DNA from: a virus
Lineage: Duplodnaviria > Heunggongvirae > Uroviricota > Caudoviricetes
Reading direction: 5' to 3' (one strand)
IMG/VR virus record: IMGVR_UViG_3300012347_000377
Span: 1 to 64,000 of that record
DNA: 64,000 nucleotides
Shown here: positions 726-48,353 of the stretch, piece by piece
How the letters are laid out: each line of letters starts with the position of its first letter
Position numbering within the stretch: position 1 is the first letter of the stretch
Translations under genes and position numbers: made by a program
Notes under the pieces: model-generated
The model's input: only the letters and a program-made list of their open reading frames with translations
The model's database searches: none
What the model was told of the DNA's origin: nothing

Positions 726-838
726 TAGTCAGGTGGCGGAATTGGTTAGACGCTGCTCGTGGAGAGTTGATTGGTTCTGTTCGATTCAGACGTTGGAAAT
801 GGTGTTCCACAAATACAGGTTCGAATCCTGTCCTGACT
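726..838 (+). tRNA. tRNA-like gene with roughly 40-nt insertion between D- and T-arms (intron-containing or degenerate tRNA; paralogue of 25501-25627)
   Basis: Acceptor AGTCAGG/CCTGACT, D-arm GCGGAATTGGTTAGACGC, T-arm ACAGG-TTCGAAT-CCTGT; total 113 nt, too long for canonical tRNA. Confidence 0.4.
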
Positions 839-860
839 ACAAACTTTAAACAAAAAGAGA

Positions 861-3820: not shown

Positions 3821-3992
3821 TAAAAGTATTTACATCAAGTGTAAGTCCGGACAATAATGAGGCCGGTATTGATTTTACTAAAATGATTGAATTGTGGATA
3901 AGCGGATTAGCAACTAAAATACAAATTAAAAACATACATACCAATTCAAATGAATATGGTTGGATGGTTATTATTCACTACGAATTATGGTA
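3816..3992 (+). CDS. hypothetical small protein (58 aa)
   Basis: ATGA overlap with upstream stop; not in supplied track (<60 aa). Confidence 0.3.
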
Positions 3993-7172: not shown

Positions 7173-7736
7173 ATGGGATTCACAATACCAACTCCACCTA
7201 TTAGTTTCAAGTCAAATAACGATAATAAAATGGAACACATTGAACAACATCACTTTGTAAAGAAAAGTGAGAAACAAGCAGTAAATAAACATCAACCCAA
7301 AGAAGAGCCAAGTCAAGTTCAATCTCAAAGTTCTGATGTTGAAACAATAACTTTTCATAACACCCAACCAACCAGTAGTTATAATCCATATACATTTCAA
7401 ACGGAAACATCATATACTGGTTTAGGGGAAGCAATTGCAAATGGAAAGGATTCCGATTTAGTAGCAGTATCAGTTGGAGAAATTAGAAAACTACATGAAC
7501 GGATTAGGGTGTTGGAAGAAGAAGTTATGAAATCAACTAGAATCACATCTTCAAACACATCTCACAAACAAAAGGTATTAGATGCGGAGAGGGCTAGAAT
7601 CGAAATGAACTACGAAACACATAAGAAACTAACAGAATTAAAAAAGGCTGAAATTATTAAACAGACCGAATTAAAAAGGTCTGAAGCTTTACAACGTATG
7701 CAATCTTCAAAGTTCGATGGGATATTTAATCGATAA
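7173..7736 (+). CDS. hypothetical coiled-coil protein (187 aa)
   Basis: ORF, charged heptad-like C-terminus. Confidence 0.45.
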   Translation: MGFTIPTPPISFKSNNDNKMEHIEQHHFVKKSEKQAVNKHQPKEEPSQVQSQSSDVETITFHNTQPTSSYNPYTFQTETSYTGLGEAIANGKDSDLVAVSVGEIRKLHERIRVLEEEVMKSTRITSSNTSHKQKVLDAERARIEMNYETHKKLTELKKAEIIKQTELKRSEALQRMQSSKFDGIFNR

Positions 7737-9171: not shown

Positions 9172-10650
9172 ATGAATCCATTATTATTAACCGATGGTTA
9201 TAAGACAGGTCATCACCAACAATACCCAGAGGGAACAACGTTGGTTTATTCAAATTTCACACCCCGCAGTAACAAATATGCACCAACGGGTTGTGATAAT
9301 GTAGTATCGTTTGGTCAACAAATGATTATGAAACAAATTCACGAGGCATTTCAAAATGAATTCTTCTCTAAACCAAAAGAAGAAGTTTGTGGTGAAATGA
9401 AACGTGAGTTAAGTTTGTATTTGGGAACTGATTATGATGTTTCTCATTTTGAAGCATTACATGATTTGGGTTATTTACCAATCATTGTAAAAGGTATTGA
9501 AGAAGGAACATTAGTTCCAATGAGAGTACCAGTATTAACAATCTATAATACATTACCGGAATTTTATTGGGTTACAAATTATTTAGAAACAATCATTTCT
9601 AACTTATTATGGAAACCAATGACATCTGCTACTATTGCTCATACCTATCGTAAGGTATTAACTAAATGGCAAGAAAAAACCGATGCTGAAAAAGGTTGGT
9701 TTGTTGATTGGCAAGGACATGACTTCTCAATGAGAGGAATGGATTCAGTTGAAGCTACAATCGCTAGTGGATTAGGACACTTAACATCATTTAGTGGAAC
9801 TGATAGTTTACCTGCTATTTACGGAGCAAGAAAGTTCTATGGTGAAGAAGGATTCGTTGGAGGTTCGGTAAACGCAACCGAACATAGTGTAATGTGTGCT
9901 GGTTCTAAAGATGATGAAGTTGGAACATTCCGCAGATTGTTAGAAACATATCCAAAAGGTATTTTATCAGTTGTAAGTGATACTTGGGATTTATGGAAAG
10001 TATGCACCGAACATATCGTTACTCTTAAAGAAGAAATCTTAGCAAGAGATGGTAAGTTGGTAATCAGACCTGATAGTGGTGACCCCGTAGATATTCTTTG
10101 TGGATTAGCAAACACCGACAGAGCGGCTAAAGGAGATTCTCATGATAATGCAAACGCAGCTTATAAAGGAGTTATTGAATTACTTTGGGACGTGTTTGGT
10201 GGAACAATCAACGAACAAGGTTACAAAGTATTAGATTCTCACATTGGAGCAATTTATGGTGATAGTATCACAATTGATAGAGCTGATGAGATTTGTAGAA
10301 GATTGGAAGCAAAAGGTTTCGCATCTACAAACGTTGTATTAGGTATTGGTTCATTCACATATCAGTATAACACGAGAGATACATTTGGATTCGCTATGAA
10401 AGCAACCTATGTTGAAGTAAATGGTGAAGGTAGAGAAATCTTCAAAGACCCTATTACTGATGATGGTGTTAAGAAATCAGCCAAAGGTTTATTAAGAGTT
10501 GCGGGAGATGAAACCCATATGTTATTAGAAGACCAATGTACGTGGGAACATGAAACAACTGGTAAATTACAAACCATTTATAAGAATGGTGAGTTTTATA
10601 ATGAAACTACTTTAACTAAAATCAAAGAGAAAATTAAAACAAATAAATAA
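9172..10650 (+). CDS. nadV: nicotinamide phosphoribosyltransferase family protein (NAMPT/NadV-like)
   Basis: N-terminus MNPLLLTDGYKTGHHQQYPEGT... matches NAMPT family start (..ATDSYKVTHYKQYPP..); 492 aa. Confidence 0.8.
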   Translation: MNPLLLTDGYKTGHHQQYPEGTTLVYSNFTPRSNKYAPTGCDNVVSFGQQMIMKQIHEAFQNEFFSKPKEEVCGEMKRELSLYLGTDYDVSHFEALHDLGYLPIIVKGIEEGTLVPMRVPVLTIYNTLPEFYWVTNYLETIISNLLWKPMTSATIAHTYRKVLTKWQEKTDAEKGWFVDWQGHDFSMRGMDSVEATIASGLGHLTSFSGTDSLPAIYGARKFYGEEGFVGGSVNATEHSVMCAGSKDDEVGTFRRLLETYPKGILSVVSDTWDLWKVCTEHIVTLKEEILARDGKLVIRPDSGDPVDILCGLANTDRAAKGDSHDNANAAYKGVIELLWDVFGGTINEQGYKVLDSHIGAIYGDSITIDRADEICRRLEAKGFASTNVVLGIGSFTYQYNTRDTFGFAMKATYVEVNGEGREIFKDPITDDGVKKSAKGLLRVAGDETHMLLEDQCTWEHETTGKLQTIYKNGEFYNETTLTKIKEKIKTNK

Positions 10651-13532: not shown

Positions 13533-14672
13533 ATGGAAAACTTAAATTCAGTTTGCTACGTAGCAACGATTAATGAAATCAAACCAATCGAAGGTGCTGA
13601 CAACATCGAACTTGTAATAGCAGGTGGATGGAATGCAATCACAAAGAAAGGTGAATTTAAAGTAGGTGATACAACCATCATCGCAACTACTGATGCAGTT
13701 ATACCAGAATCACTTTCCGAAGAAATGGGAGTTACAAACTATCTTCGTAAAGGTAATAGAGTTAGGACTGTGAAGTTAAGAGGTGTATATTCAGAATGTT
13801 TGATTATACCAAAGCAGTATCTAATGGGTAATGTGACAATGGGTGATTATGATTTGGGTGAAGGTAGTGATTGTATGGAGTTCTTAGGGATTACTAAATT
13901 CGAACCACCAGTTAAGATGGTTCAATTAGCAAGTGGTAAAAAGATTCGTTATCAAGATAATCCAAACTTTCATGTCTATTATAAGTTTCCTAACTTAAAG
14001 AATGTACCTGATATGTTTACTAACAATGATTTAGTAGAAATCACTCGTAAGATACATGGAACTAATGCTCGATATGGTATTGTTAAAAAGAACAAATTAT
14101 CATTATTTGATAAGCTTAAGAAATTCTTTGGATTTGCCGATAAGTGGATTGATTACGAATTCGTAGTTGGTTCTCATAACGTAGAGAAAGGTTCAGACTC
14201 CAATGGGTTCTATGATACTAATGTTTGGTATGAAATTGAAAAGAAATACAACATCAAACAAAAATTATGGGATTACGTTAAAAATGAAAACGTTTATATT
14301 GGTGATGGTATTACCTTATATGGTGAGATTTACGGAGCGGGAATCCAAAAGGGATATGAGTATGGGTTAAAAGATATTGAGTTCGTAGGATTCGATGTAA
14401 AGGAGTGTGGTGAGTATTTAAGTACCTACAATGCTTGGAGGGTAATTAAAAATGAATTAGAATTACCTTATGTTGAAATTTTACACTTCGGTGATTGGTC
14501 ACAAGAAATACAAGATTCTTTTGTATTTAATAACTTTATCGAAGGAACAAAAGTTCCACATGAAGGAATTGTAATCAAATACCACACAGGTGAAAGACCA
14601 AAGATTGCTAAGGTAATCAACCCTGATTATTTAATCTTTGCAGAAAAACACAATGTGGGGGATTCCCATTAA
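13533..14672 (+). CDS. ATP-dependent RNA ligase, Rnl2-like, with extra N-terminal domain
   Basis: Motif I KIHGTN, motif IV EGIVIK, motif V IAKVIN in canonical order. Confidence 0.65.
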   Translation: MENLNSVCYVATINEIKPIEGADNIELVIAGGWNAITKKGEFKVGDTTIIATTDAVIPESLSEEMGVTNYLRKGNRVRTVKLRGVYSECLIIPKQYLMGNVTMGDYDLGEGSDCMEFLGITKFEPPVKMVQLASGKKIRYQDNPNFHVYYKFPNLKNVPDMFTNNDLVEITRKIHGTNARYGIVKKNKLSLFDKLKKFFGFADKWIDYEFVVGSHNVEKGSDSNGFYDTNVWYEIEKKYNIKQKLWDYVKNENVYIGDGITLYGEIYGAGIQKGYEYGLKDIEFVGFDVKECGEYLSTYNAWRVIKNELELPYVEILHFGDWSQEIQDSFVFNNFIEGTKVPHEGIVIKYHTGERPKIAKVINPDYLIFAEKHNVGDSH

Positions 14673-19029: not shown

Positions 19030-19404
19030 GGGGATGCCCGGTATTGACAGATATGAAGTGTTGATATAATTGCAAGCAGGATTAGATGGAAATCCTTAAT
19101 CACCTATCGAACAATAAACGCAGAAGAAAAATCTTCATTCACCTTTGCAGATGCTATGGCATTTGTAGGTGCTGATTTAGCTGTAGCAGCATAATCATCC
19201 TCGCACACATCGTGAGCTAAAAAAGAATGTGAACTCAGGTGGAAAAGTGATTGAACCCGAAATCGAATCACTCATTGTTTATCGGTTGCCGATGGTGAAG
19301 AACCAACCGAATATTTTGTTAGTTAAGAAAAACTAACTAAGCTTGTGAATGAGGTTTATTAAACCATATTTTGGACGAGGGTTCGACTCCCTCCATCTCC
19401 ACCA
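19030..19404 (+). ncRNA. ssrA: tmRNA (SsrA)-like RNA, phage-encoded
   Basis: 5' GGGGATG pairs with 3' CATCTCC-ACCA (G3:U70); 3' end GGACGAGGGTTCGACTCCCTC...CCACCA is tmRNA-like; internal frame aataaacGCAGAAGAA...GCTGTAGCAGCATAA ends in ...ADLAVAA stop. Confidence 0.6.
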
Positions 19405-19786: not shown

Positions 19787-19857
19787 GCGAGGGGGAGGTA
19801 AGGTATTTCATTGGTCTCATAAGCCAACCTAAGTGGGTTCGATTCCCACCCTACGCA
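19787..19857 (+). tRNA. tRNA-like gene, anticodon CAT, degenerate D-arm
   Basis: Acceptor GCGAGGG/CCTACGC (1 mismatch), anticodon arm TTGGT-CTCATAA-GCCAA, T-arm GTGGG-TTCGATT-CCCAC. Confidence 0.3.
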
Positions 19858-20057: not shown

Positions 20058-20270
20058 ATGGTAAAGTTTCATAAAGTTCTTTTAATTGCTGGATGTGTGA
20101 CATCATTATTAAGTGGTGTGATAAGTGTAGTTCAAAATAAGTTTGATACATATGCATTTATATCAGCATTGTTATTCTTTAATTTATATCTTAGTTTAAT
20201 TACTAATACGAAATTAGAAAATGCAATTAATGATCACGTTAAATCAGTTAGAAAAATAATTAAAAAATAA
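20058..20270 (+). CDS. small membrane protein (70 aa)
   Basis: Two hydrophobic helices. Confidence 0.4.
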   Translation: MVKFHKVLLIAGCVTSLLSGVISVVQNKFDTYAFISALLFFNLYLSLITNTKLENAINDHVKSVRKIIKK

Positions 20271-20281
20271 TTGTAAAATTA

Positions 20282-20313
20282 TTTGGAAATACGAAAAAAG
20301 TTTCGTATCTTTG
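20282..20313 (+). promoter_or_regulatory. phage promoter
   Basis: tttggaaatacgaaaaaagtttcgtatctttg. Confidence 0.5.
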
Positions 20314-20384
20314 TAAAGTTGGTTCTGAACTCATAGGCAATGAAAGATACTCGGTATCAGAAACAAAAAAAAGTTTAAAAAATA

Positions 20385-20416
20385 TTTGGAATTGTAAAAT
20401 TAATTTCGTATCTTTG
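20385..20416 (+). promoter_or_regulatory. phage promoter driving ORF-free region
   Basis: tttggaattgtaaaattaatttcgtatctttg. Confidence 0.55.
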
Positions 20417-20424
20417 ATAAACAA

Positions 20425-21550
20425 AACGTTCTTTAAATTATTGAAAACATTGCACATAGTATTCTCGTAATACATAGTGCATATCCGCCGCATATGGTGG
20501 TTAAATAAACTTGGAAACAAGGATAAAGTGAATACATTGGTTAATGTGTTTGCGGTTTCAAACCGAAAGGAATGGAACTCGAGTATGCAAGTGGAATATC
20601 ATTAGACCTGATTAGTGAGGGTAACTCCGTAGTGAAATGGTTTGATGACTGGGCTATAGTAGAAGTTCAGTTGAAGTGGGAACACTAATAAGAATAATCC
20701 ATAGAGTTAATGCAAGAAGTGAGAACTTAATCTCTTCTCATCATTGCGTGATTCAATATTAAAGGTGACTTAAAACCGAAAGGTATGATAAAGTACGAGT
20801 GGTGTCGTTATTATCCTTACCTACCTCTCACCAAAGAGTGGGTATTGAAGTAATCTTAAAATATGGCGTTAGAGATAACGCATCGAGTAGTATAGTATTC
20901 TGTTCTTCAAAATGGAACGGAGCTAGTGGTAATCCACTACTTGAATTCTTCTACAAACCAAAACTCAATTTGCTATTTGAATGCAAACTCAAAAACAAAT
21001 AAGAGAAAGAGGTTACCAGTTACAATCGAAAGGTGTGTACTTAGTAGGGAGATGTTCCCTGCCACAAACACTCTCAAGGTGAATGTGATTCTTTCAAAAA
21101 ACTTCTAGCATTGCGAGATGTTAATCGGGTCGGCAGATTCGAAGAGGCGGAGTAAAAAGAGAGTAGGTTGTGACTTAAAGATTGGTAAATCTATAATTAC
21201 CCACATTGAATTGGTACTTCTCAAAAGGAAGTGGAAATTAAGGCAACCCATAACCCTTATAAAGCTGGTTCACAATATGGAGTATTCTCATCCTTATACA
21301 AGATGTAATAGTGTAATGGTAGCACGTTCCAATGGTGACTTTGGAAAGCAAGGTTCGATTCCTTAAACATCTCTTCGTAGTGGTTTACGGCAGATAGGTT
21401 AGGTGTATCTCTCTAACAACTGAAAGTCCACTTAAATAAAAATGACAAATAGTATGAAGATATGGTTTTCAGTAGGGGATTTTCGCCTTAAACAATCTCA
21501 ACCAATACGAATTAGTGTTGATGGTAAACAATGGATGTAGCTAGTCCTTT
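20425..21550 (+). ncRNA. candidate large structured non-coding RNA (about 1.1 kb, ORF-free)
   Basis: Bounded by consensus promoter and terminator; no ORF >82 aa in any frame; visibly G+C-richer than coding DNA; recurring ccgaaagg/tcgaaagg GNRA-like hairpins (20562, 20778, 21037). Confidence 0.35.
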
Positions 21551-21586
21551 GGAAAGAACCACCCTACGAAATCTTTCCTTTTTTAT
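21551..21586 (+). terminator. rho-independent terminator
   Basis: GGAAAG-16nt-CTTTCC followed by TTTTTT. Confidence 0.5.
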
Positions 21587-21661
21587 AACAATGGTTGTAG
21601 GTAGGTTCGATTCCTCCGTTATATCTAAATTAATTAAACACAAACAAAAAAAACAATTATT

Positions 21662-21841
21662 ATGAAAAAAGTATTAGCAATTTTCGCAGTGGCATCTTTA
21701 GTAGTATTAGCATCTTGCGGTGGTAAAGCAACAACTGAAGCAACAACAGATTCAACGGCAGTAGCAACAGATTCAGTATCGGTAGATTCAACCGCAACAC
21801 CAGCAGTAGATTCAACAGCAACAACAGCGGAAGTAAAATAA
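21662..21841 (+). CDS. small lipoprotein (59 aa) with DSTA repeats
   Basis: MKKVLAIFAVASLVVLASCGG lipobox; not in supplied track (<60 aa). Confidence 0.45.
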   Translation: MKKVLAIFAVASLVVLASCGGKATTEATTDSTAVATDSVSVDSTATPAVDSTATTAEVK

Positions 21842-21887: not shown

Positions 21888-22049
21888 ATGAAAACTCTAA
21901 CATTACATACAATCAACCAACTACCAACACAGAAATGTGCGTGGACAGGGAATCGTATGTTTAGTATGATAGAACTACCGCAAGCAAAATCGATTATTGG
22001 CAATGTGGATTATAATAGTTCTTCGTTAGGGGAGGCATCTGGATGGTAA
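21888..22049 (+). CDS. hypothetical small protein (53 aa)
   Basis: ORF followed immediately by terminator. Confidence 0.3.
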   Translation: MKTLTLHTINQLPTQKCAWTGNRMFSMIELPQAKSIIGNVDYNSSSLGEASGW

Positions 22050-25313: not shown

Positions 25314-25349
25314 TAATGTTCTTTGAAACGATGGTTAGTAAAGTAATAT

Positions 25350-25500: not shown

Positions 25501-25627
25501 AGTCTTGTGGCGAAATGGTAAACGCAAATGTCACTCGGAGAAGAAGGAACTAAGCCAACATCTCCTTGCAAGTGATAGGGTATTCTAAAGAGTAAATCCC
25601 GTACAGGTTCGAATCCTGTCATGACTA
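25501..25627 (+). tRNA. tRNA-like gene with roughly 55-nt insertion (paralogue of 726-838)
   Basis: AGTCTTG/CATGACT acceptor, D-arm GGCGAAATGGTAAACGC, ACAGG-TTCGAAT-CCTGT; internal hairpins CACTCGGAGA...TCTCCTTGCAAGTG and AGGG...CCC. Confidence 0.4.
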
Positions 25628-25819
25628 CAATGTATCAAATGTGCAGTGAAAATAAATGTAGGCATACATATATGAGGTGGGTTCGACTCCCGTATAATAA
25701 TTCCAACTTAGGGGGGAAGCCAAGTAACTGAAAACACATTATAGCCGATTTGGGTTGTGCACCTCGTCCGAGAAACCCTAATAGTTCCTAATAGGTCGGT
25801 ATGGAACTGATACATAATT

Positions 25820-31642: not shown

Positions 31643-33472
31643 ATGGAAGATATTTCAAAAGTAGAAAAACGAATTCTTGAACAAATAGAAAGTAATGTTC
31701 CGTTGGTTGATGTGAAAATTGATTTAAGTAATTATCTGAAACATGCGTTTGTTAATGACCACATCGATAAATCTAAACAAGAAATAACTCACACTTTTCA
31801 ATATGAAACATTAGGAGAACAAGATTGTTTATTAATGCAAGCTCCTAATATCAATGAATCTGGTTATTATGCCGGTATTGTTGCGTTAAAATCCTACATA
31901 GATAAATTTCATTCAGATTTGAATGTTGCAATTATAGACCCCGTAATTGATTATTTTTATCTATATCCACCAAATAAAGAATCTGAATTTTTTAATATGT
32001 TCAACACCTATGCAATGCAAGGTCAATATGAACGTTTATATGAATTCACCGAAATGAATGATATGGTTGAAGGATTTGTCTTCAAATATATCGAAAAAAC
32101 CAATCCTGCATTTTTTGGATTAAGTATTATCGATGGTAATATCGATGCATCGATTGCAATTGCAAGAAGAGTTAAAGAACAATATCCACATATTAAAATT
32201 TTGATGGGTGGTAATGGAATTGAGGTTTTAGACTTCGGTGTTCTACCGAATCCTACTTACACAACTGAAAAATATGATTTCATTGATATTTTTGTAAGGG
32301 GCGATGGTGAAATTACTTTTGTGGAAATTTTGAAATCGGACATGTCTGAAGAATATCTAAAAACTATAAATGGAATTATTTGGAGAAATTCGGAAGGTAA
32401 GTTAGTTCATAATCATACTCGTGAAAATGTTGATATGGATATTTTACCATTTCCAGATTATGCTTCATTAGAGGAAAATTATTATTACAAATCTACCTAC
32501 CAATACAATGTTCCACTTGTTATGAGTAGAGGATGTCCTTACAGATGCACATTTTGTTCAGTACCTGAATTTATTCCGGTCTTCCGCTATCGTAAATTAG
32601 AATCGGTAATTGAAGAAATGGAACATTGGATTAACAAAGGACGTTATCACTTTTTCTGCCACGATTCAATTATTAATGGTGATCCAAGATGGTTGAAAAA
32701 ATTCTGCGAGGCAGTTATTGAAAAAGATTGGTATGCAAAATATGGTGTATCATTTGGTGGTAATATGAGATTACAAACTCCAATGCGTGATTTAGAAACA
32801 ATGCGATTATATCGTAAAGCCGGATTATTAAAAATGATTACAGGGTTTGAATCTGCATCAGAGCCAGTTTTAAAACATATGAAAAAATATCCTAATATGG
32901 ATGGGGTTAGGGAAATTTTTGAAAATGTTCGAATTATCAATAGTGAAAATGAACCTCCAATGATGTTTGCAATGCAACTTATTATTGGATACTTAAATGA
33001 GAGTGAGGAAGATTTTCAGAAAACAATTGATTTTGTGAAAGAGTATAAAGATTGTATGTCTGAAATCTTAACTTGTTCTGGGTTTCTTATCCACGAAACT
33101 TTACGAAAGAAATGGGTAGAAGATGGTAATTTTTTACAATATCATAATACGGTTAATTTTAATACCAATTATAATACTGCAGAAGAACGTTTGGATAGAC
33201 TTAACAGAATCGATGAAGTATTTAAAGAAATAGGAATACCACATTCGGTCTATAATAGAGGTTTATATTATGATTTAAAAGATAAAACTGATACGGAAAT
33301 CGGTGATATTTACAATATCGATGATTGTAAAAATCCGGACAAGATATTAGAAATAAATCAGTATTATAAAAATACTGAAGAAGAAATAATGGTTGAAACT
33401 GAATCGGAGATAATTGAAGAATATATTCAAATGTCAAATGAAGAACCTCCAAAAATTACTAAATTAATTTAA
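31643..33472 (+). CDS. B12-binding-domain radical SAM enzyme
   Basis: CPYRCTFCSV (CxxxCxxC) preceded by Rossmann-like ILMGGNGIE region typical of cobalamin-binding rSAM proteins. Confidence 0.75.
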   Translation: MEDISKVEKRILEQIESNVPLVDVKIDLSNYLKHAFVNDHIDKSKQEITHTFQYETLGEQDCLLMQAPNINESGYYAGIVALKSYIDKFHSDLNVAIIDPVIDYFYLYPPNKESEFFNMFNTYAMQGQYERLYEFTEMNDMVEGFVFKYIEKTNPAFFGLSIIDGNIDASIAIARRVKEQYPHIKILMGGNGIEVLDFGVLPNPTYTTEKYDFIDIFVRGDGEITFVEILKSDMSEEYLKTINGIIWRNSEGKLVHNHTRENVDMDILPFPDYASLEENYYYKSTYQYNVPLVMSRGCPYRCTFCSVPEFIPVFRYRKLESVIEEMEHWINKGRYHFFCHDSIINGDPRWLKKFCEAVIEKDWYAKYGVSFGGNMRLQTPMRDLETMRLYRKAGLLKMITGFESASEPVLKHMKKYPNMDGVREIFENVRIINSENEPPMMFAMQLIIGYLNESEEDFQKTIDFVKEYKDCMSEILTCSGFLIHETLRKKWVEDGNFLQYHNTVNFNTNYNTAEERLDRLNRIDEVFKEIGIPHSVYNRGLYYDLKDKTDTEIGDIYNIDDCKNPDKILEINQYYKNTEEEIMVETESEIIEEYIQMSNEEPPKITKLI

Positions 33473-47111: not shown

Positions 47112-48353
47112 ATGAAAGTAGTAATAATTGGTGGAGGAACTGCCGGATGGTTAACGGCTTTGGTAGTTAATAAATTTTGGAAAAACGCAGACGTTACCTT
47201 AATTGAAAGTTCTAAGATAGGAATATTAGGAGCAGGAGAAGGTGGAACTCCCAATTTCGGAAGAATGCTAAGTTTATTGGATATTAATCATGAAGATTTT
47301 TTTGAAAAAACTAAATCAACTATAAAAAGTGGAGTACATTTAGTTAATTGGACAGGTAATGGGGAATTATCAAAACATTTATTTACTGGAGCAGAACCCG
47401 ATTCATTTAATAAACATCATGCATATCACTTCGATGCTCGAGCAGTTGCTGAATATTTTAAAGGTATTTCCATATCAAGAGGAGTTAATTGGATTGATGG
47501 TGAAGTTGATACAATTGAAAATAATGGTGATGAAATTAAATCTGTTTCATTGAAAGATAATACTAAAATAGATTTAGATTTTGTATTTGATTGTAGTGGG
47601 TTCAAGCGTATTATCATAGATGGCATTCATTCGGAAGAATGGATTGATTATGATAAATATTTAATGATGAATAAGGCGTTTACATTTTTCCTACCACAAT
47701 CTACGGAAGATGTAGGGTATTCCAAAACATATACTCGTATGGTTTCTATGAATTCCGGTTGGATGTTTCAAATACCATTACAACATAGATGGGGATGTGG
47801 GTATGTCCACAACGATAAATATATTTCAATAGATGAAGCTAAGAAAGAAATCGAAGATTATTTAGGACATGAGGTAAATATACAAAAGATATTTGATTTT
47901 AAACCCGGAACACATAAACGTAGTTGGATAGGAAATTCAATATCAATTGGATTATCATATGGGTTTATTGAACCATTGGAAGCAACATCGTTAATGTCTA
48001 CTATCATGCAATTAAAAAGATTGATTGATACCGAGTTCGATGCGGGATATCGAGATAGATATAATACATGGTGCTATCAAATAAACGAACAAAATTTAAA
48101 CTTCATACGATTCCATTATCTATGTGAACGAGAAGATACTGAATTTTGGAAAGATTGCACATCATTACCATTACCTACTAAATTAAAAAATATATTAGAT
48201 AAAAATAATTCATTAATACCAACGAATGATTTCCAATTACTTAATATGCTAGAATTACAAGAATCGTCTGTAAATGAATTAACATTTTATGTAAATAATT
48301 ATTCTACTATTTTTGTAAAAAATAAAAACAAAGGAAAAAGACAATTGTTATAA
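47112..48353 (+). CDS. flavin-dependent halogenase (tryptophan-halogenase family)
   Basis: N-terminal VIIGGGTAGW FAD motif and GWMFQIP matching the WxWxIP halogenase signature. Confidence 0.65.
   Translation: MKVVIIGGGTAGWLTALVVNKFWKNADVTLIESSKIGILGAGEGGTPNFGRMLSLLDINHEDFFEKTKSTIKSGVHLVNWTGNGELSKHLFTGAEPDSFNKHHAYHFDARAVAEYFKGISISRGVNWIDGEVDTIENNGDEIKSVSLKDNTKIDLDFVFDCSGFKRIIIDGIHSEEWIDYDKYLMMNKAFTFFLPQSTEDVGYSKTYTRMVSMNSGWMFQIPLQHRWGCGYVHNDKYISIDEAKKEIEDYLGHEVNIQKIFDFKPGTHKRSWIGNSISIGLSYGFIEPLEATSLMSTIMQLKRLIDTEFDAGYRDRYNTWCYQINEQNLNFIRFHYLCEREDTEFWKDCTSLPLPTKLKNILDKNNSLIPTNDFQLLNMLELQESSVNELTFYVNNYSTIFVKNKNKGKRQLL

What the first reader, a model, noticed from the sequence alone, without database searches (positions are those of the whole stretch)
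20385..21586. About 1.1 kb ORF-free, G+C-richer transcribed region between a consensus promoter and a terminator: candidate large structured ncRNA (GOLLD/ROOL-class?)
From the promoter at 20385-20416 to the terminator hairpin at 21551-21586 there is no ORF longer than 82 aa in any frame. This is in a genome otherwise packed with + strand genes. The sequence is visibly richer in G and C than flanking DNA and is full of short helices capped by GNRA-like tetraloops (ccgaaagg at 20562 and 20778, tcgaaagg at 21037). It lies inside the tmRNA/tRNA gene region. Large ornate RNAs such as GOLLD and ROOL are known to sit next to tRNA arrays in phage genomes; this region has the right size and context. 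A tRNA interrupted by a self-splicing intron is an alternative.
Basis: partly seen in the sequence, partly recalled or inferred. Interest (0 to 1): 0.75.

Follow-up and report, generated by a model that had tools for sequence, protein, structure and literature searches.

The report
Phage GOLLD RNA with conserved appendages
The gene-free stretch encodes GOLLD RNA, an already known giant phage non-coding RNA that self-assembles into hollow cages, followed by a tRNA-shaped element and a small structured RNA that travel with it and appear to be undescribed.

Summary
Window 20484-21294 (+) is a full-length GOLLD RNA. The Rfam GOLLD model, which covers only the 3' half, matches 20883-21294 at 260.5 bits (threshold 150). 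The whole 811 nt aligns end to end, at 71% identity, with env-38 GOLLD, whose 14-mer nanocage structure is solved. All ten inter-subunit contacts of that cage are conserved or compensated.

The 1.1 kb is not one RNA. It is a composite non-coding unit:
- a Bacteroidota-type phage promoter (20385-20416) and a leader with a boxA-like motif;
- GOLLD;
- a degenerate tRNA-like element (21301-21373);
- a second tRNA-like minihelix.

X, the minihelix and an upstream hairpin "S" (20322-20364) all show covariation. They recur next to GOLLD in 14-19 distinct metagenomic relatives, including the env-38 locus itself. They match no Rfam family.

I infer, but have not shown, that the tRNA-like element is an RNase P/Z processing signal that frees GOLLD and X.

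Verdict: new member of a known family, with modest interest added by the conserved, undescribed companion modules.

The parts
20282..20313 (+). Upstream copy of the phage promoter motif (ATTTGGAAA...TTTCGTATCTTTG); drives hairpin S
   Evidence: Exact 13-mer match at 20301-20313. The extended motif is aligned.
20322..20364 (+). Hairpin 'S': stem TTCTGA/TCAGAA (20323-28 / 20357-62) around a conserved core ACUCAUAGGCAAUGAAAGAUACUCGGUA (mostly invariant; four positions vary)
   Evidence: Found upstream of GOLLD in 13 further distinct loci, including the env-38 locus L083. Stem covariation: 7 of 8 pairs change on both sides, score 0.349 against 0.158, 0 of 500 shuffles reach it. No Rfam match at E<=10.
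20385..20416 (+). Promoter of the GOLLD unit: -33 TTTG (20385-88) and -7 TAnnTTTG (TATCTTTG, 20409-16), 20-nt spacer; Bacteroidota-type
   Evidence: 21 copies against 4.2 expected. Assignment to the Bacteroidota promoter type rests on my own knowledge of the TTTG/TAnnTTTG consensus.
20424..20483 (+). 5' leader: boxA-like GTTCTTTAAA (20428-37) and a hairpin (about 20452-20480)
   Evidence: The leader sequence is conserved in relatives. The hairpin stem covaries: GTATT/AATAC, GTAGA/TCTAC, GTATC/GGTAC (read from the alignment). GTTCTTTRAA occurs 4 times against 0.73 expected, and both + strand copies directly follow a promoter.
20484..20882 (+). GOLLD RNA 5' domain ('cap' domain, env-38 residues 3-420)
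   Evidence: Pairwise alignment with env-38. RNAalifold on 27 homologues: 101 pairs, 67 with compensatory changes. It holds the B2 motif GAGGGUAAC at 20617-25 and both loops of the B4 kissing contact (20730-34, 20872-76).
20883..21294 (+). GOLLD RNA 3' domain ('ring' domain), including the A-rich disordered linker from about 20959 (it aligns with env-38 497-538; the 3' end did not map, roughly 21000)
   Evidence: Rfam RF02032: 260.5 bits (threshold 150), model positions 1-416 of 416, pseudoknot paired. Domain boundary mapped.
21301..21373 (+). Degenerate cloverleaf tRNA-like element: 6-bp acceptor stem plus an A.A mismatch, an 8-nt 'anticodon' loop, T-arm GGUUCGAUUCC
   Evidence: ARAGORN calls it tRNA-??? 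with anticodon gtga. Rfam tRNA: 30.3 bits against a threshold of 29. In relatives the same position holds true tRNAs, odd tRNAs or an acceptor/T-arm minihelix.
21374..21585 (+). Element X, a structured RNA of about 213 nt. Helices: H1 21379-83/21428-32; H2 21391-93/21420-22; H3 21398-402/21413-17; H4 21405-09/21459-63 (pairs the loop of H3 with a downstream strand, a pseudoknot); H6 21498-502/21517-21; H7 21533-36/21544-47, with a palindromic loop (UAGCUA); H8 21552-57/21572-77, the terminator stem. T-run at 21579-84.
   Evidence: 19 distinct homologues. 13 pairs change on both sides against 4.4 in shuffles (0 of 500); register-slid controls give 5 or fewer. Model R1 finds it in 30 sources (the window and 29 loci) of the env-38/window subclade and nowhere else in the window. 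No Rfam match. Indels break any reading frame.
21584..21624 (+). Second tRNA-like minihelix (acceptor TATAAC/GUUAUA, AAUGGUU, T-arm with UUCGAUU loop) just after the terminator
   Evidence: Aligned with the post-GOLLD minihelices of relatives. Also present in L033 and L076. Part of a weak tRNA-Sec-like hit of 20.5 bits.

Best explanation
The region is a non-coding transcription unit of a large phage. Its promoters suggest a Bacteroidota host.

Shown:
- Window 20484-21294 is a complete GOLLD RNA with both domains, homologous over its full length to env-38 GOLLD.
- It is preceded by a repeated phage promoter and a conserved leader.
- It is followed, 6 nt later, by a tRNA-like element, then by a 213-nt structured RNA (X) that ends in a hairpin plus T-run.

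Inferred from homology to solved structures: the RNA folds into a 5' cap domain and a 3' ring domain and self-assembles, without protein, into a closed homo-oligomeric nanocage of the env-38 type. The stoichiometry is probably about 14 but is uncertain.

Inferred from anatomy and comparison:
- The tRNA-shaped element does not decode. It works as an RNase P / RNase Z processing site that defines the 3' end of GOLLD and the 5' end of X, as in tRNA-punctuated transcripts.
- The boxA-like leader may make RNA polymerase resistant to termination across this long untranslated transcript.
- The hairpin and T-run at 21552-21584 end the unit.

The biological role of the cage, and of X, is unknown. The idea that the cage encloses or stores tRNA-like or translation-related cargo during infection is the field's hypothesis, not something tested here.

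The confidence given (0.8) is for GOLLD identity plus the composite architecture. GOLLD identity alone is about 0.98, and the RNase P/Z processing step alone about 0.55.
For: GOLLD identity:
- Rfam GOLLD at 260.5 bits against a threshold of 150, full model, pseudoknot intact.
- 71.4% identity over 808 aligned nt with env-38. I recovered the true env-38 sequence from its own scaffold, L083, at the published coordinates.
- 5' domain: 67 of 101 predicted pairs show compensatory changes in 27 homologues.

Cage-forming capacity:
- Every residue set of the ten inter-subunit bridges B1-B10 listed for the 14-mer is identical or near-identical. Single unpaired substitutions occur in B2 (U150 to G) and B10 (A688 to G).
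- Two bridges are compensated: B4 G411:C256 becomes A20873:U20733, and the B6 receptor pair U669:A682 becomes G21127:C21140.
- B4 covaries across the clade: CG 17, UA 5, UG 1 at one position and UA 23, CG 4 at another.

Promoter: 21 copies of the core against 4.2 expected.

tRNA-like element as a structural rather than decoding element:
- The loop that stands in for the anticodon loop is 8 nt in the window, 6 nt in L076 and 5 nt in L033. The whole arm is missing in 12 distinct relatives, which keep only the acceptor stem, T-arm and AAUGGUU.
- The acceptor stem covaries: 5 of 7 pairs, 0 of 500 shuffles.
- Other relatives have a true tRNA at the same spot, of differing identity: Gly directly after GOLLD, Leu or Glu at about the same place.
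- 26 of 36 distinct 3' flanks carry a T-arm motif within 100 nt.

X: covariation and distribution.

Literature: GOLLD forms RNA-only cages, lies near tRNAs in phages, and sometimes has tRNAs embedded (PMC12286853; PMC12990946; PMC5737381).
Against: - No expression, end-mapping or assembly data exist for this sequence.
- The window's GOLLD lacks 16 nt of env-38's P11a region. The review notes that the presence or absence of P9, P11a-c and P21b changes the oligomer number (12 against 14). The stoichiometry therefore cannot be read from sequence.
- Nine of about 35 true relatives have no tRNA-like element after GOLLD, so tRNA-guided processing cannot be a universal requirement.
- The tRNA-like element has no encoded CCA and an A.A mismatch at the base of its acceptor stem.
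- The boxA assignment rests on a 10-nt match and on a consensus recalled from memory. Enrichment is weak: 4 against 0.73, and 1 of 100 shuffles reaches 4.
- Host assignment is indirect. It rests on the promoter type and on one 2-kb contig binned with a Bacteroidetes MAG.
Confidence: 0.8

Rival explanations
1. The tRNA-like element and X are not cut off. They are covalent 3' domains of an extended GOLLD of about 1.1 kb, so the native cage carries a tRNA-elbow mimic and a pseudoknotted arm on every protomer.1-kb RNA'.
For: - One promoter and one terminator bracket all three modules.
- The order GOLLD, minihelix, X is fixed in 19 distinct loci, including env-38's.
- tRNAs embedded in GOLLD linkers are known, and 'inhibited storage' has been proposed for them.
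- The loop of X helix H7 holds an invariant palindrome (UAGCUA) on a strongly covarying stem. That would suit two-fold contacts like the self-kissing bridges B8 and B9 of the cage.
Against: - Acceptor/T-arm minihelices are classical RNase P substrates (established knowledge), and nothing here shields the site.
- Close relatives have GOLLD followed by a true tRNA and no X (L022/L049), or by no tRNA-like element at all. GOLLD therefore does not need X.
- env-38 forms closed cages without these modules.
Confidence: 0.22
2. X is a cis-regulatory leader (a riboswitch or attenuator with the hairpin and T-run as its expression platform) that controls read-through into the genes downstream. It has no functional tie to GOLLD.
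For: - X ends in a terminator-like hairpin. The hairpin's invariant 14-nt loop (ACCACCCUACGAAA) can pair with an invariant upstream GUAGGG (21472-77 with 21562-67). This geometry is reminiscent of pseudoknotted riboswitch platforms.
- The size, about 210 nt, fits.
Against: - What follows X differs between relatives: a minihelix and a lipoprotein ORF in the window, L033 and L076; another conserved RNA-like block in L018, L027 and L056; a small ORF in L006, L083 and L085. No consistent regulated gene exists.
- X was found only directly after GOLLD plus the tRNA-like element.
- The proposed loop pairing is invariant, so covariation cannot test it.
Confidence: 0.1
3. The element at 21301-21373 is a working tRNA with a four-base anticodon (GUGA) in an 8-nt loop, that is, a +1 frameshift or quadruplet decoder.
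For: ARAGORN reports a cloverleaf with a 4-base anticodon. Rfam tRNA scores 30.3 bits, just over the threshold.
Against: - Position 33 is G, not U, and position 37 is C, not a purine.
- There is an A.A mismatch in the acceptor stem.
- The near-identical relative L076 has a 6-nt loop on a 7-bp stem, L033 has a 5-nt loop, and 12 distinct relatives lack the arm entirely while keeping the acceptor stem and T-arm.
Confidence: 0.04
4. The tRNA-like elements, X and S are decaying remnants of tRNA genes and spacers. They are carried along by linkage and have no function of their own.
For: The tRNA-like element looks degenerate. The modules are confined to one GOLLD subclade.
Against: Compensatory changes keep the helices of X (13 pairs), the minihelix (5 of 7 acceptor pairs) and S (7 of 8 pairs). 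In each case 0 of 500 shuffles reach the observed covariation score, and register-slid controls are far lower. Loops stay invariant while stems change.
Confidence: 0.05
5. The region is protein-coding with frameshifts, or a tRNA split by a self-splicing intron.
For: None beyond short ORFs of 82 aa or less.
Against: - A full-length, high-scoring GOLLD model match.
- The substitution pattern is compensatory in helices.
- No intron family scores at E<=1.
- 1- and 2-nt indels occur between close relatives in X.
Confidence: 0.01

Closest known systems
GOLLD RNA, env-38 representative (Rfam RF02032; cryo-EM 14-mer, PDB 9MEE, Kretsch et al. 2025, PMC12286853)
   Same: - Same two-domain RNA, aligned end to end: 71.4% identity, with env-38 residues 3-833 matching window 20484-21294.
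- Same bridge residues B1-B10.
- Same A-rich internal linker.
- Same genomic company: S hairpin upstream, minihelix and X downstream, as seen in env-38's own scaffold L083.
   Different: - 16 nt shorter in the P11a region.
- The B4 and B6 contacts are kept through compensatory changes.
- It has its own promoter inserted between S and GOLLD.
- A cloverleaf-like tRNA mimic stands where env-38 has a minihelix, and a second minihelix follows the terminator.
- The source is a different phage with a tRNA and tmRNA island.
Streptococcus agalactiae GOLLD (12-mer, PDB 9L0R) and Lactobacillales prophage GOLLDs
   Same: Same family and the same conserved 3' domain.
   Different: According to the review, Sag GOLLD lacks P9, P11a-c and P21b and forms a dodecamer. 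The window's RNA is of the env-38 type. I did not compare the sequences directly.
Mycobacterial tRNA-array GOLLDs with an embedded tRNA (Morgado et al. 2020, as cited)
   Same: GOLLD physically joined to a tRNA-shaped element inside a tRNA array.
   Different: There the tRNA (Phe) sits in the internal linker J13/15 and is a real tRNA. Here the tRNA-like element is at the 3' end and is degenerate or reduced to a minihelix.
ROOL RNA
   Same: A large ornate phage RNA near tRNA islands that also forms a nanocage.
   Different: No ROOL match at E<=1. The sequence and fold are unrelated.
tRNA-like 3'-end processing signals (MALAT1/mascRNA; tRNA punctuation of polycistronic transcripts) and the acceptor/T-arm minihelix or tmRNA tRNA-like domain
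   Same: A tRNA-shaped module directly abutting the 3' end of a long ncRNA. It is reduced to an acceptor stem, a T-arm and a GG-containing D-loop analogue, which is the part RNase P recognises (established knowledge).
   Different: Cleavage has not been tested here. This is a bacterial phage context, and there is no sequence relationship to mascRNA or tmRNA.
rRNA-operon and CRISPR-array leaders with boxA (and boxB) antitermination signals
   Same: A hairpin (S) and then a GUUCUUUAAA motif shortly after the promoter of a long untranslated transcript. BoxA elements protect such transcripts from Rho, including in Bacteroidetes (PMC7665894).
   Different: This is only a 10-nt resemblance to a consensus I recalled from memory. 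No NusB/NusE binding data exist. In the window a second promoter separates S from the motif.

Membership tests
GOLLD RNA (RF02032) | The 3' domain matches the curated covariance model above its gathering score over the full model | tested here: met
   260.5 bits against 150, E 1e-74, model 1-416 of 416, window 20883-21294
GOLLD RNA (RF02032) | The long-range pseudoknot of the 3' domain (the [[[ ]]] pairs of the consensus) is formed | tested here: met
   In the cmscan alignment, AGUUACAA pairs with UUGUGACU, including one G.U pair. No non-canonical pairs are flagged in that helix.
GOLLD RNA (RF02032) | A separate, less conserved 5' domain (P1-P13) upstream of the 3' domain, giving a total length of about 800 nt | tested here: met
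   Window 20484-20882 aligns with env-38 residues 3-420. 67 of 101 predicted pairs show compensatory changes in 27 homologues. Total length 811 nt.
GOLLD RNA (RF02032) | A variable, unstructured A-rich linker between the P14 region and the pseudoknot (J13/15) | tested here: met
   The region from about 20959 aligns with the env-38 disordered linker 497-538 (its 3' end did not map). It is A-rich and has low posterior probability in the model alignment.
GOLLD RNA (RF02032) | Genomic context: phage or prophage, next to tRNA genes | tested here: met
   A tmRNA and 26 tRNA or tRNA-like genes within 10 kb. Phage-typical genes are present (NAMPT, RNA ligase). Relatives lie on viral contigs of up to 642 kb.
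GOLLD nanocage (env-38 type, D7 14-mer) | The residues forming the ten inter-subunit bridges B1-B10 are present and complementary | tested here: met
   All are identical except U150 to G and A688 to G, plus two compensated pairs in B4 and B6. B4 covaries in the clade.
GOLLD nanocage (env-38 type, D7 14-mer) | RNA-only assembly into a closed multimer of defined stoichiometry | not testable with these tools
   This needs mass photometry or cryo-EM. The P11a region is 16 nt shorter than in env-38, and elements in this region influence the oligomer number.
ROOL RNA | Match to the Rfam ROOL model | tested here: not met
   No hit at the gathering threshold or at E<=1 in 20200-21700
Group I / group II intron inside a tRNA | Match to an intron covariance model flanked by tRNA halves | tested here: not met
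   No intron family at E<=1. ARAGORN with introns allowed finds only the unsplit tRNA-like element.
Canonical decoding tRNA (element 21301-21373) | 7-nt anticodon loop with U33 and a purine at 37; 7-bp acceptor stem; conserved across orthologues | tested here: not met
   The loop is 8 nt with G33 and C37, and the acceptor stem has an A.A mismatch. The arm is variable or absent in relatives. The score is 30.3 bits against a threshold of 29.
RNase P / RNase Z substrate (tRNA-like processing signal) | Coaxial acceptor stem and T-stem, with a T-loop and a D-loop GG able to form the elbow | tested here: met
   In the relatives' minihelices the acceptor stem is 7 bp and the T-stem 5 bp, both kept by covariation. 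UUCGAUU and AAUGGUU are invariant in 14 sequences. The window's own element has a 6-bp acceptor stem plus an A.A mismatch and a 4-bp T-stem.
RNase P / RNase Z substrate (tRNA-like processing signal) | Actual cleavage at the 5' and 3' ends of the element | not testable with these tools
   This requires an in vitro RNase P assay or transcript end mapping.
boxA antitermination leader | A promoter-proximal boxA consensus bound by NusB/NusE | tested here: inconclusive
   GTTCTTTAAA at 20428 and GTTCTTTGAA at 25318, each just after a promoter. 4 copies against 0.73 expected, but 1 of 100 shuffles reaches 4. The consensus is recalled from memory, and binding is untestable here.
Any Rfam family, for X and S | Match to one of 4227 covariance models | tested here: not met
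   Only noise hits well below the thresholds at E<=10

The most novel reading that the evidence does not exclude
In the env-38 / huge-phage lineage, GOLLD is not a stand-alone gene. It is the core of a conserved RNA operon with four modules: hairpin S, GOLLD, a tRNA-elbow minihelix and the pseudoknotted RNA X. X and S are new structured RNA classes that work with the cage.

For example, X, released or tethered by the tRNA-like joint and able to dimerise through its invariant palindromic loop, could be the cargo, lid or assembly factor of the cage. If so, the particles studied so far by cryo-EM, made from a construct ending at the GOLLD 3' end, would lack their natural partners.
Probability: 0.3. 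Interest if true: 0.65.

Novelty: new member of a known kind. Interest (0 to 1): 0.42.

Why it matters
GOLLD is one of the largest bacterial and phage non-coding RNAs. It is one of only two natural RNAs shown to build closed cages without protein, and its function is still unknown.

This locus adds a member from a large phage rich in tRNAs and carrying a tmRNA. The comparison it prompted is more useful than the member itself. The very GOLLD used for the 14-mer structure (env-38) sits in a conserved arrangement: an upstream hairpin, a tRNA-like minihelix at its 3' end, and a downstream pseudoknotted RNA of about 210 nt.

These give concrete, testable handles on how GOLLD is made (promoter, possible boxA antitermination, RNase P/Z processing) and on candidate partners (X, the tRNA-elbow mimic). 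The absence of any known partner is exactly what has blocked functional work on this RNA.

Tried and rejected
1. Sigma-70 promoter and simple terminator scan. It was uninformative. Hits were at shuffle level, the real promoter is not of the sigma-70 type, and the real terminator has a 14-nt loop that the scan excludes.

2. Single-sequence fold of 21295-21630. The z-score was only -1.35, so it said nothing.

3. RNAalifold on X proposed a long-range closing helix (GUAG.GGU at the 5' end with ACCCUAC). I rejected it. L006 and L033 break it, yet they keep the local helix H1 through compensatory changes.

4. The tRNA-Sec-like hit at 21534-21625 (20.5 bits). I rejected it as a tRNA. Its 5' half is the conserved 3' end of X, which in most relatives is followed by unrelated sequence.

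5. A search for diverged copies of X in other GOLLD loci and elsewhere in the window with covariance model R1 found none.

6. A scan of 185,579 bacterial and archaeal species genomes for this GOLLD subtype gave 1 true hit out of 20, a 2-kb contig of a Bacteroidetes MAG. This gave no prophage or host anchor.

7. The annotated phage collection holds only two distant relatives, both unannotated huge phages.

8. The first structure string for hairpin S was off by one column. I corrected it.

9. Weinberg 2009 and Morgado 2020 are not held in the paper library. Statements about them rely on how later papers cite them.

10. The OCR copy of env-38 from the supplement lacked 17 nt. I replaced it with the sequence from scaffold L083.
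Full report
**1. The observation**

The interval is as described.
- No ORF lying wholly inside 20385-21586 exceeds 82 aa.
- G+C is 0.36-0.39, against 0.21-0.22 just upstream.
- The region lies between a tmRNA (19030-19404) and an array of about 25 tRNA genes, all on the + strand.

The "consensus promoter" is real but is not a sigma-70 consensus. TTTG (20385-88) and TATCTTTG (20409-16) belong to a motif of about 45 nt, aaaaAtATTTGGAAwTgTaAAA....TTTCGTATCTTTG. Its 13-nt core occurs 21 times in the window (up to 2 mismatches) against 4.2 expected, and 0 of 100 shuffles reach 21. Almost all copies are on the + strand and they cluster in the RNA-gene island. From my own knowledge, TTTG / TAnnTTTG is the Bacteroidota promoter type.

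The "terminator" is a GAAAGA/TCTTTC stem (21552-57 / 21572-77) with a 14-nt loop and a T-run (21579-84).

The GAAA motifs exist at 20563-70, 20776-83 and 21026-33.

**2. What it is**

The Rfam GOLLD model matches 20883-21294 at 260.5 bits (gathering score 150), over all 416 model positions and with the pseudoknot paired. That model covers only the 3' half of GOLLD.

For the 5' half I took the env-38 GOLLD sequence used for the cryo-EM 14-mer (Kretsch et al. 2025, supplementary table 4). One locus fetched later, L083 (AACY020168123.1), turned out to be the env-38 scaffold itself, with GOLLD at the published coordinates. That gave the exact 833-nt sequence.

Window 20484-21294 aligns with it end to end at 71.4% identity over 808 positions. 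The domain boundary (env-38 420/421) falls at window 20882/20883, and the start of the disordered linker (env-38 497-538) maps to window 20959; its end falls in a gap, roughly 21000.

A 16-mer from the 5' domain (GAGGGTAACTCCGTAG) retrieved 53 IMG/VR loci. Of these, 42 are full or partial homologues by blastn. Many sit on contigs of 200-480 kb. The only hits in the annotated phage collection are two uncultured huge phages of 635 and 642 kb.

On 27 of these homologues, RNAalifold predicts 101 pairs in the 5' domain, 67 of them with compensatory double changes.

The region is therefore a complete GOLLD RNA of the env-38 type. No ROOL, intron or RNase P model scores at E<=1.

**3. Does it work like the solved GOLLD?**

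Supplementary table 2 of Kretsch et al. lists the residues of the ten inter-subunit bridges. I mapped them onto the window.
- B1, B3, B5, B7, B8 and B9 are identical.
- B2 keeps G140-G142, A145 and C146.
- B10 keeps five of six residues.
- Two bridges are compensated. The B4 kissing loop GGGAU:AUCCC becomes GAGAU:AUCUC (A20873:U20733). The B6 receptor pair U669:A682 becomes G21127:C21140.

Across 27 homologues the central B4 pairs are kept in 23-27 sequences, with CG 17 / UA 5 / UG 1 at one position and UA 23 / CG 4 at another.

This is sequence-level support for assembly into an env-38-like cage. It is not proof, and the number of protomers cannot be read from it. The window lacks 16 nt of the P11a region, and the review of these structures attributes the 12-mer/14-mer difference to such elements.

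The third motif lies in a conserved unpaired junction, not a tetraloop.

**4. The rest of the 1.1 kb**

Six nt after GOLLD lies a tRNA-like element (21301-21373). ARAGORN draws a cloverleaf with a 6-bp acceptor stem plus an A.A mismatch and an 8-nt "anticodon" loop (UGGUGACU; anticodon called as GUGA). Rfam tRNA scores 30.3 bits against a threshold of 29.

Comparison argues against decoding.
- The corresponding loop is 6 nt in the near-identical L076 and 5 nt in L033.
- In 12 distinct relatives, env-38's locus among them, the D-stem and anticodon arm are gone. What remains is a minihelix of about 42 nt: acceptor stem, invariant AAUGGUU, and a T-arm with a UUCGAUU loop.
- The acceptor stem covaries: 5 of 7 pairs, score 0.361 against 0.163, 0 of 500 shuffles.
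- Other relatives carry a true tRNA at the same place, of differing identity (Gly, Leu, Glu), or odd tRNAs.
- In all, 26 of 36 distinct 3' flanks have a T-arm motif within 100 nt.

What is conserved is the acceptor/T-arm/elbow unit. From established knowledge, this is the part recognised by RNase P. I therefore infer a processing signal that sets GOLLD's 3' end.

**5. Element X**

From 21373 to 21585 the sequence is conserved in relatives. A viral scan and the single metagenome scan brought the set to 19 distinct full-length copies. All lie directly after GOLLD and its tRNA-like element.

A hand-built structure gives 13 pairs with changes on both sides, against 4.4 in shuffles (0 of 500) and 5 or fewer in slid controls. 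It comprises H1-H3, H4 (which pairs the loop of H3 with a strand 50 nt downstream), H6, H7 and the terminator stem H8.
- H3 takes at least ten different complementary forms (my reading of the alignment).
- H7 takes four forms (GGA/UCC, GGC/GCC, GAA/UUC, AAA/UUU) under an invariant loop containing the palindrome UAGCUA.
- The terminator loop ACCACCCUAC and an upstream GUAGGG are invariant and complementary. That pairing cannot be tested by covariation.

Indels of 1-2 nt between close relatives exclude a reading frame. A covariance model of X found it in 30 sources (the window and 29 loci) of this subclade and nowhere else in 711 kb. Rfam has no match at E<=10.

After the T-run the window, L033 and L076 have a second minihelix (21584-21624).

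**6. Upstream**

A first promoter copy (20282-20313) is followed by hairpin S (20322-20364). Its stem covaries (7 of 8 pairs, 0 of 500 shuffles) around a conserved core of about 28 nt.

S precedes GOLLD in 13 further distinct loci, including env-38's. In about half of them no second promoter intervenes, so S is then part of the GOLLD leader.

The leader proper carries GTTCTTTAAA (20428-37). The only other + strand copy of GTTCTTTRAA (25318) also follows a promoter, ahead of tRNA-His. It resembles the rRNA-operon boxA as I recall it. BoxA-dependent antitermination of long untranslated RNAs, including in Bacteroidetes, is documented (PMC7665894). I treat this as a lead only.

**7. Mechanism, with its status**

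Shown:
- identity and completeness of GOLLD;
- conservation of the cage contacts;
- the composite architecture;
- purifying selection on the structures of S, the tRNA-like element and X.

Inferred:
- transcription from 20385-20416 to the terminator at 21552-84;
- RNase P/Z cleavage at the tRNA-like element;
- RNA-only assembly into a nanocage.

Unknown: what the cage or X does.

The main rival is that the 3' modules stay attached and decorate the cage. The sequence cannot decide between these.

**8. Novelty and score**

GOLLD has been known since 2009 and its structure since 2025. Location in phages next to tRNAs is its textbook context.

The conserved companions (S, minihelix, X), present even at the env-38 type locus, are not in Rfam 15. 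I found no mention of them in the searchable literature. They are a modest but real addition. They raise interest above that of a routine annotation, because they offer testable leads on GOLLD biogenesis and partners.

Noticed in passing
window 20322-20364 (also L083 1288-1346, L079 66-124, L061 1149-1207 and others): Hairpin 'S': a covarying stem around a conserved core ACUCAUAGGYRAUGAAAGAUACUCGGUA (mostly invariant), found just after a phage promoter and upstream of GOLLD in 14 distinct loci, including the env-38 scaffold. It matches no Rfam family. One copy in L071 lies 3.7 kb from GOLLD.
   Followed up: partly
window 20428-20437 and 25318-25327: A boxA-like GTTCTTTRAA sits 12 and 5 nt downstream of the -7 box of two phage promoters that drive RNA genes (GOLLD, tRNA-His). 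This may be Nus-factor antitermination of untranslated transcripts.
   Followed up: partly
window 27, 2742, 18716, 19443, 19590, 19970, 20301, 20404, 24783, 25301, 27020, 35120, 41156, 63967 (+ strand): A family of phage promoters of about 45 nt with Bacteroidota-type -33 TTTG and -7 TAnnTTTG boxes, concentrated in the tmRNA/tRNA island.
   Followed up: yes
window 727-840 and 25501-25628: Two long tRNA-like genes (113 and 127 nt) with related acceptor, D and T arms. ARAGORN can model them only with 20- and 32-nt 'introns' (Ser-cga, Ala-tgc). Rfam tRNA scores 37-38 bits. Their nature is unclear.
   Followed up: partly
window 385, 23944, 25681, 26113, 30466 (+ strand): Five more GGTTCGAnTCC T-arm motifs outside any called tRNA gene. 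They suggest further non-canonical tRNA-like elements or minihelices in this phage.
   Followed up: no
window 19030-19404: A phage-encoded tmRNA (102 bits) with tag peptide AEEKSSFTFADAMAFVGADLAVAA, 1.1 kb upstream of GOLLD. A weak tRNA-Met (33.8 bits) lies at 19787-19857. In several relatives, and for env-38, a tRNA-Met lies directly upstream of GOLLD.
   Followed up: no
window 21662-21841 and 21888-22049: Small ORFs after the unit. The first is a 59-aa product with a lipoprotein-type signal (…LASC…). The second is a 53-aa ORF starting MKTL…, whose homologue directly follows X in L006, L083 and L085.
   Followed up: no
L018 about 7620-7690; L027, L056, L061, L067, L070-L072; L017/L026 directly after GOLLD: Another conserved non-coding block (GAGGCUnnUAUUAACCAGAGCAUGACUUGGAUGGnGUAUUUUGAAG) follows the X terminator in most relatives, and follows GOLLD directly in L017 and L026. 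It is absent from the window.
   Followed up: no
L002 about 3850-3945, L035, L014: In the huge-phage relatives the post-GOLLD tRNA-like element carries an insertion of about 25 nt in its D region. It is followed by UUUCGUAGUG, the same start as X, although model R1 finds no X there.
   Followed up: no
window 9172-10650, 13533-14672, 31643-33472, 47112-48353: Auxiliary genes typical of large phages: NAMPT-like phosphoribosyltransferase, RNA ligase, a radical SAM protein and a tryptophan-halogenase-like flavoprotein.
   Followed up: no
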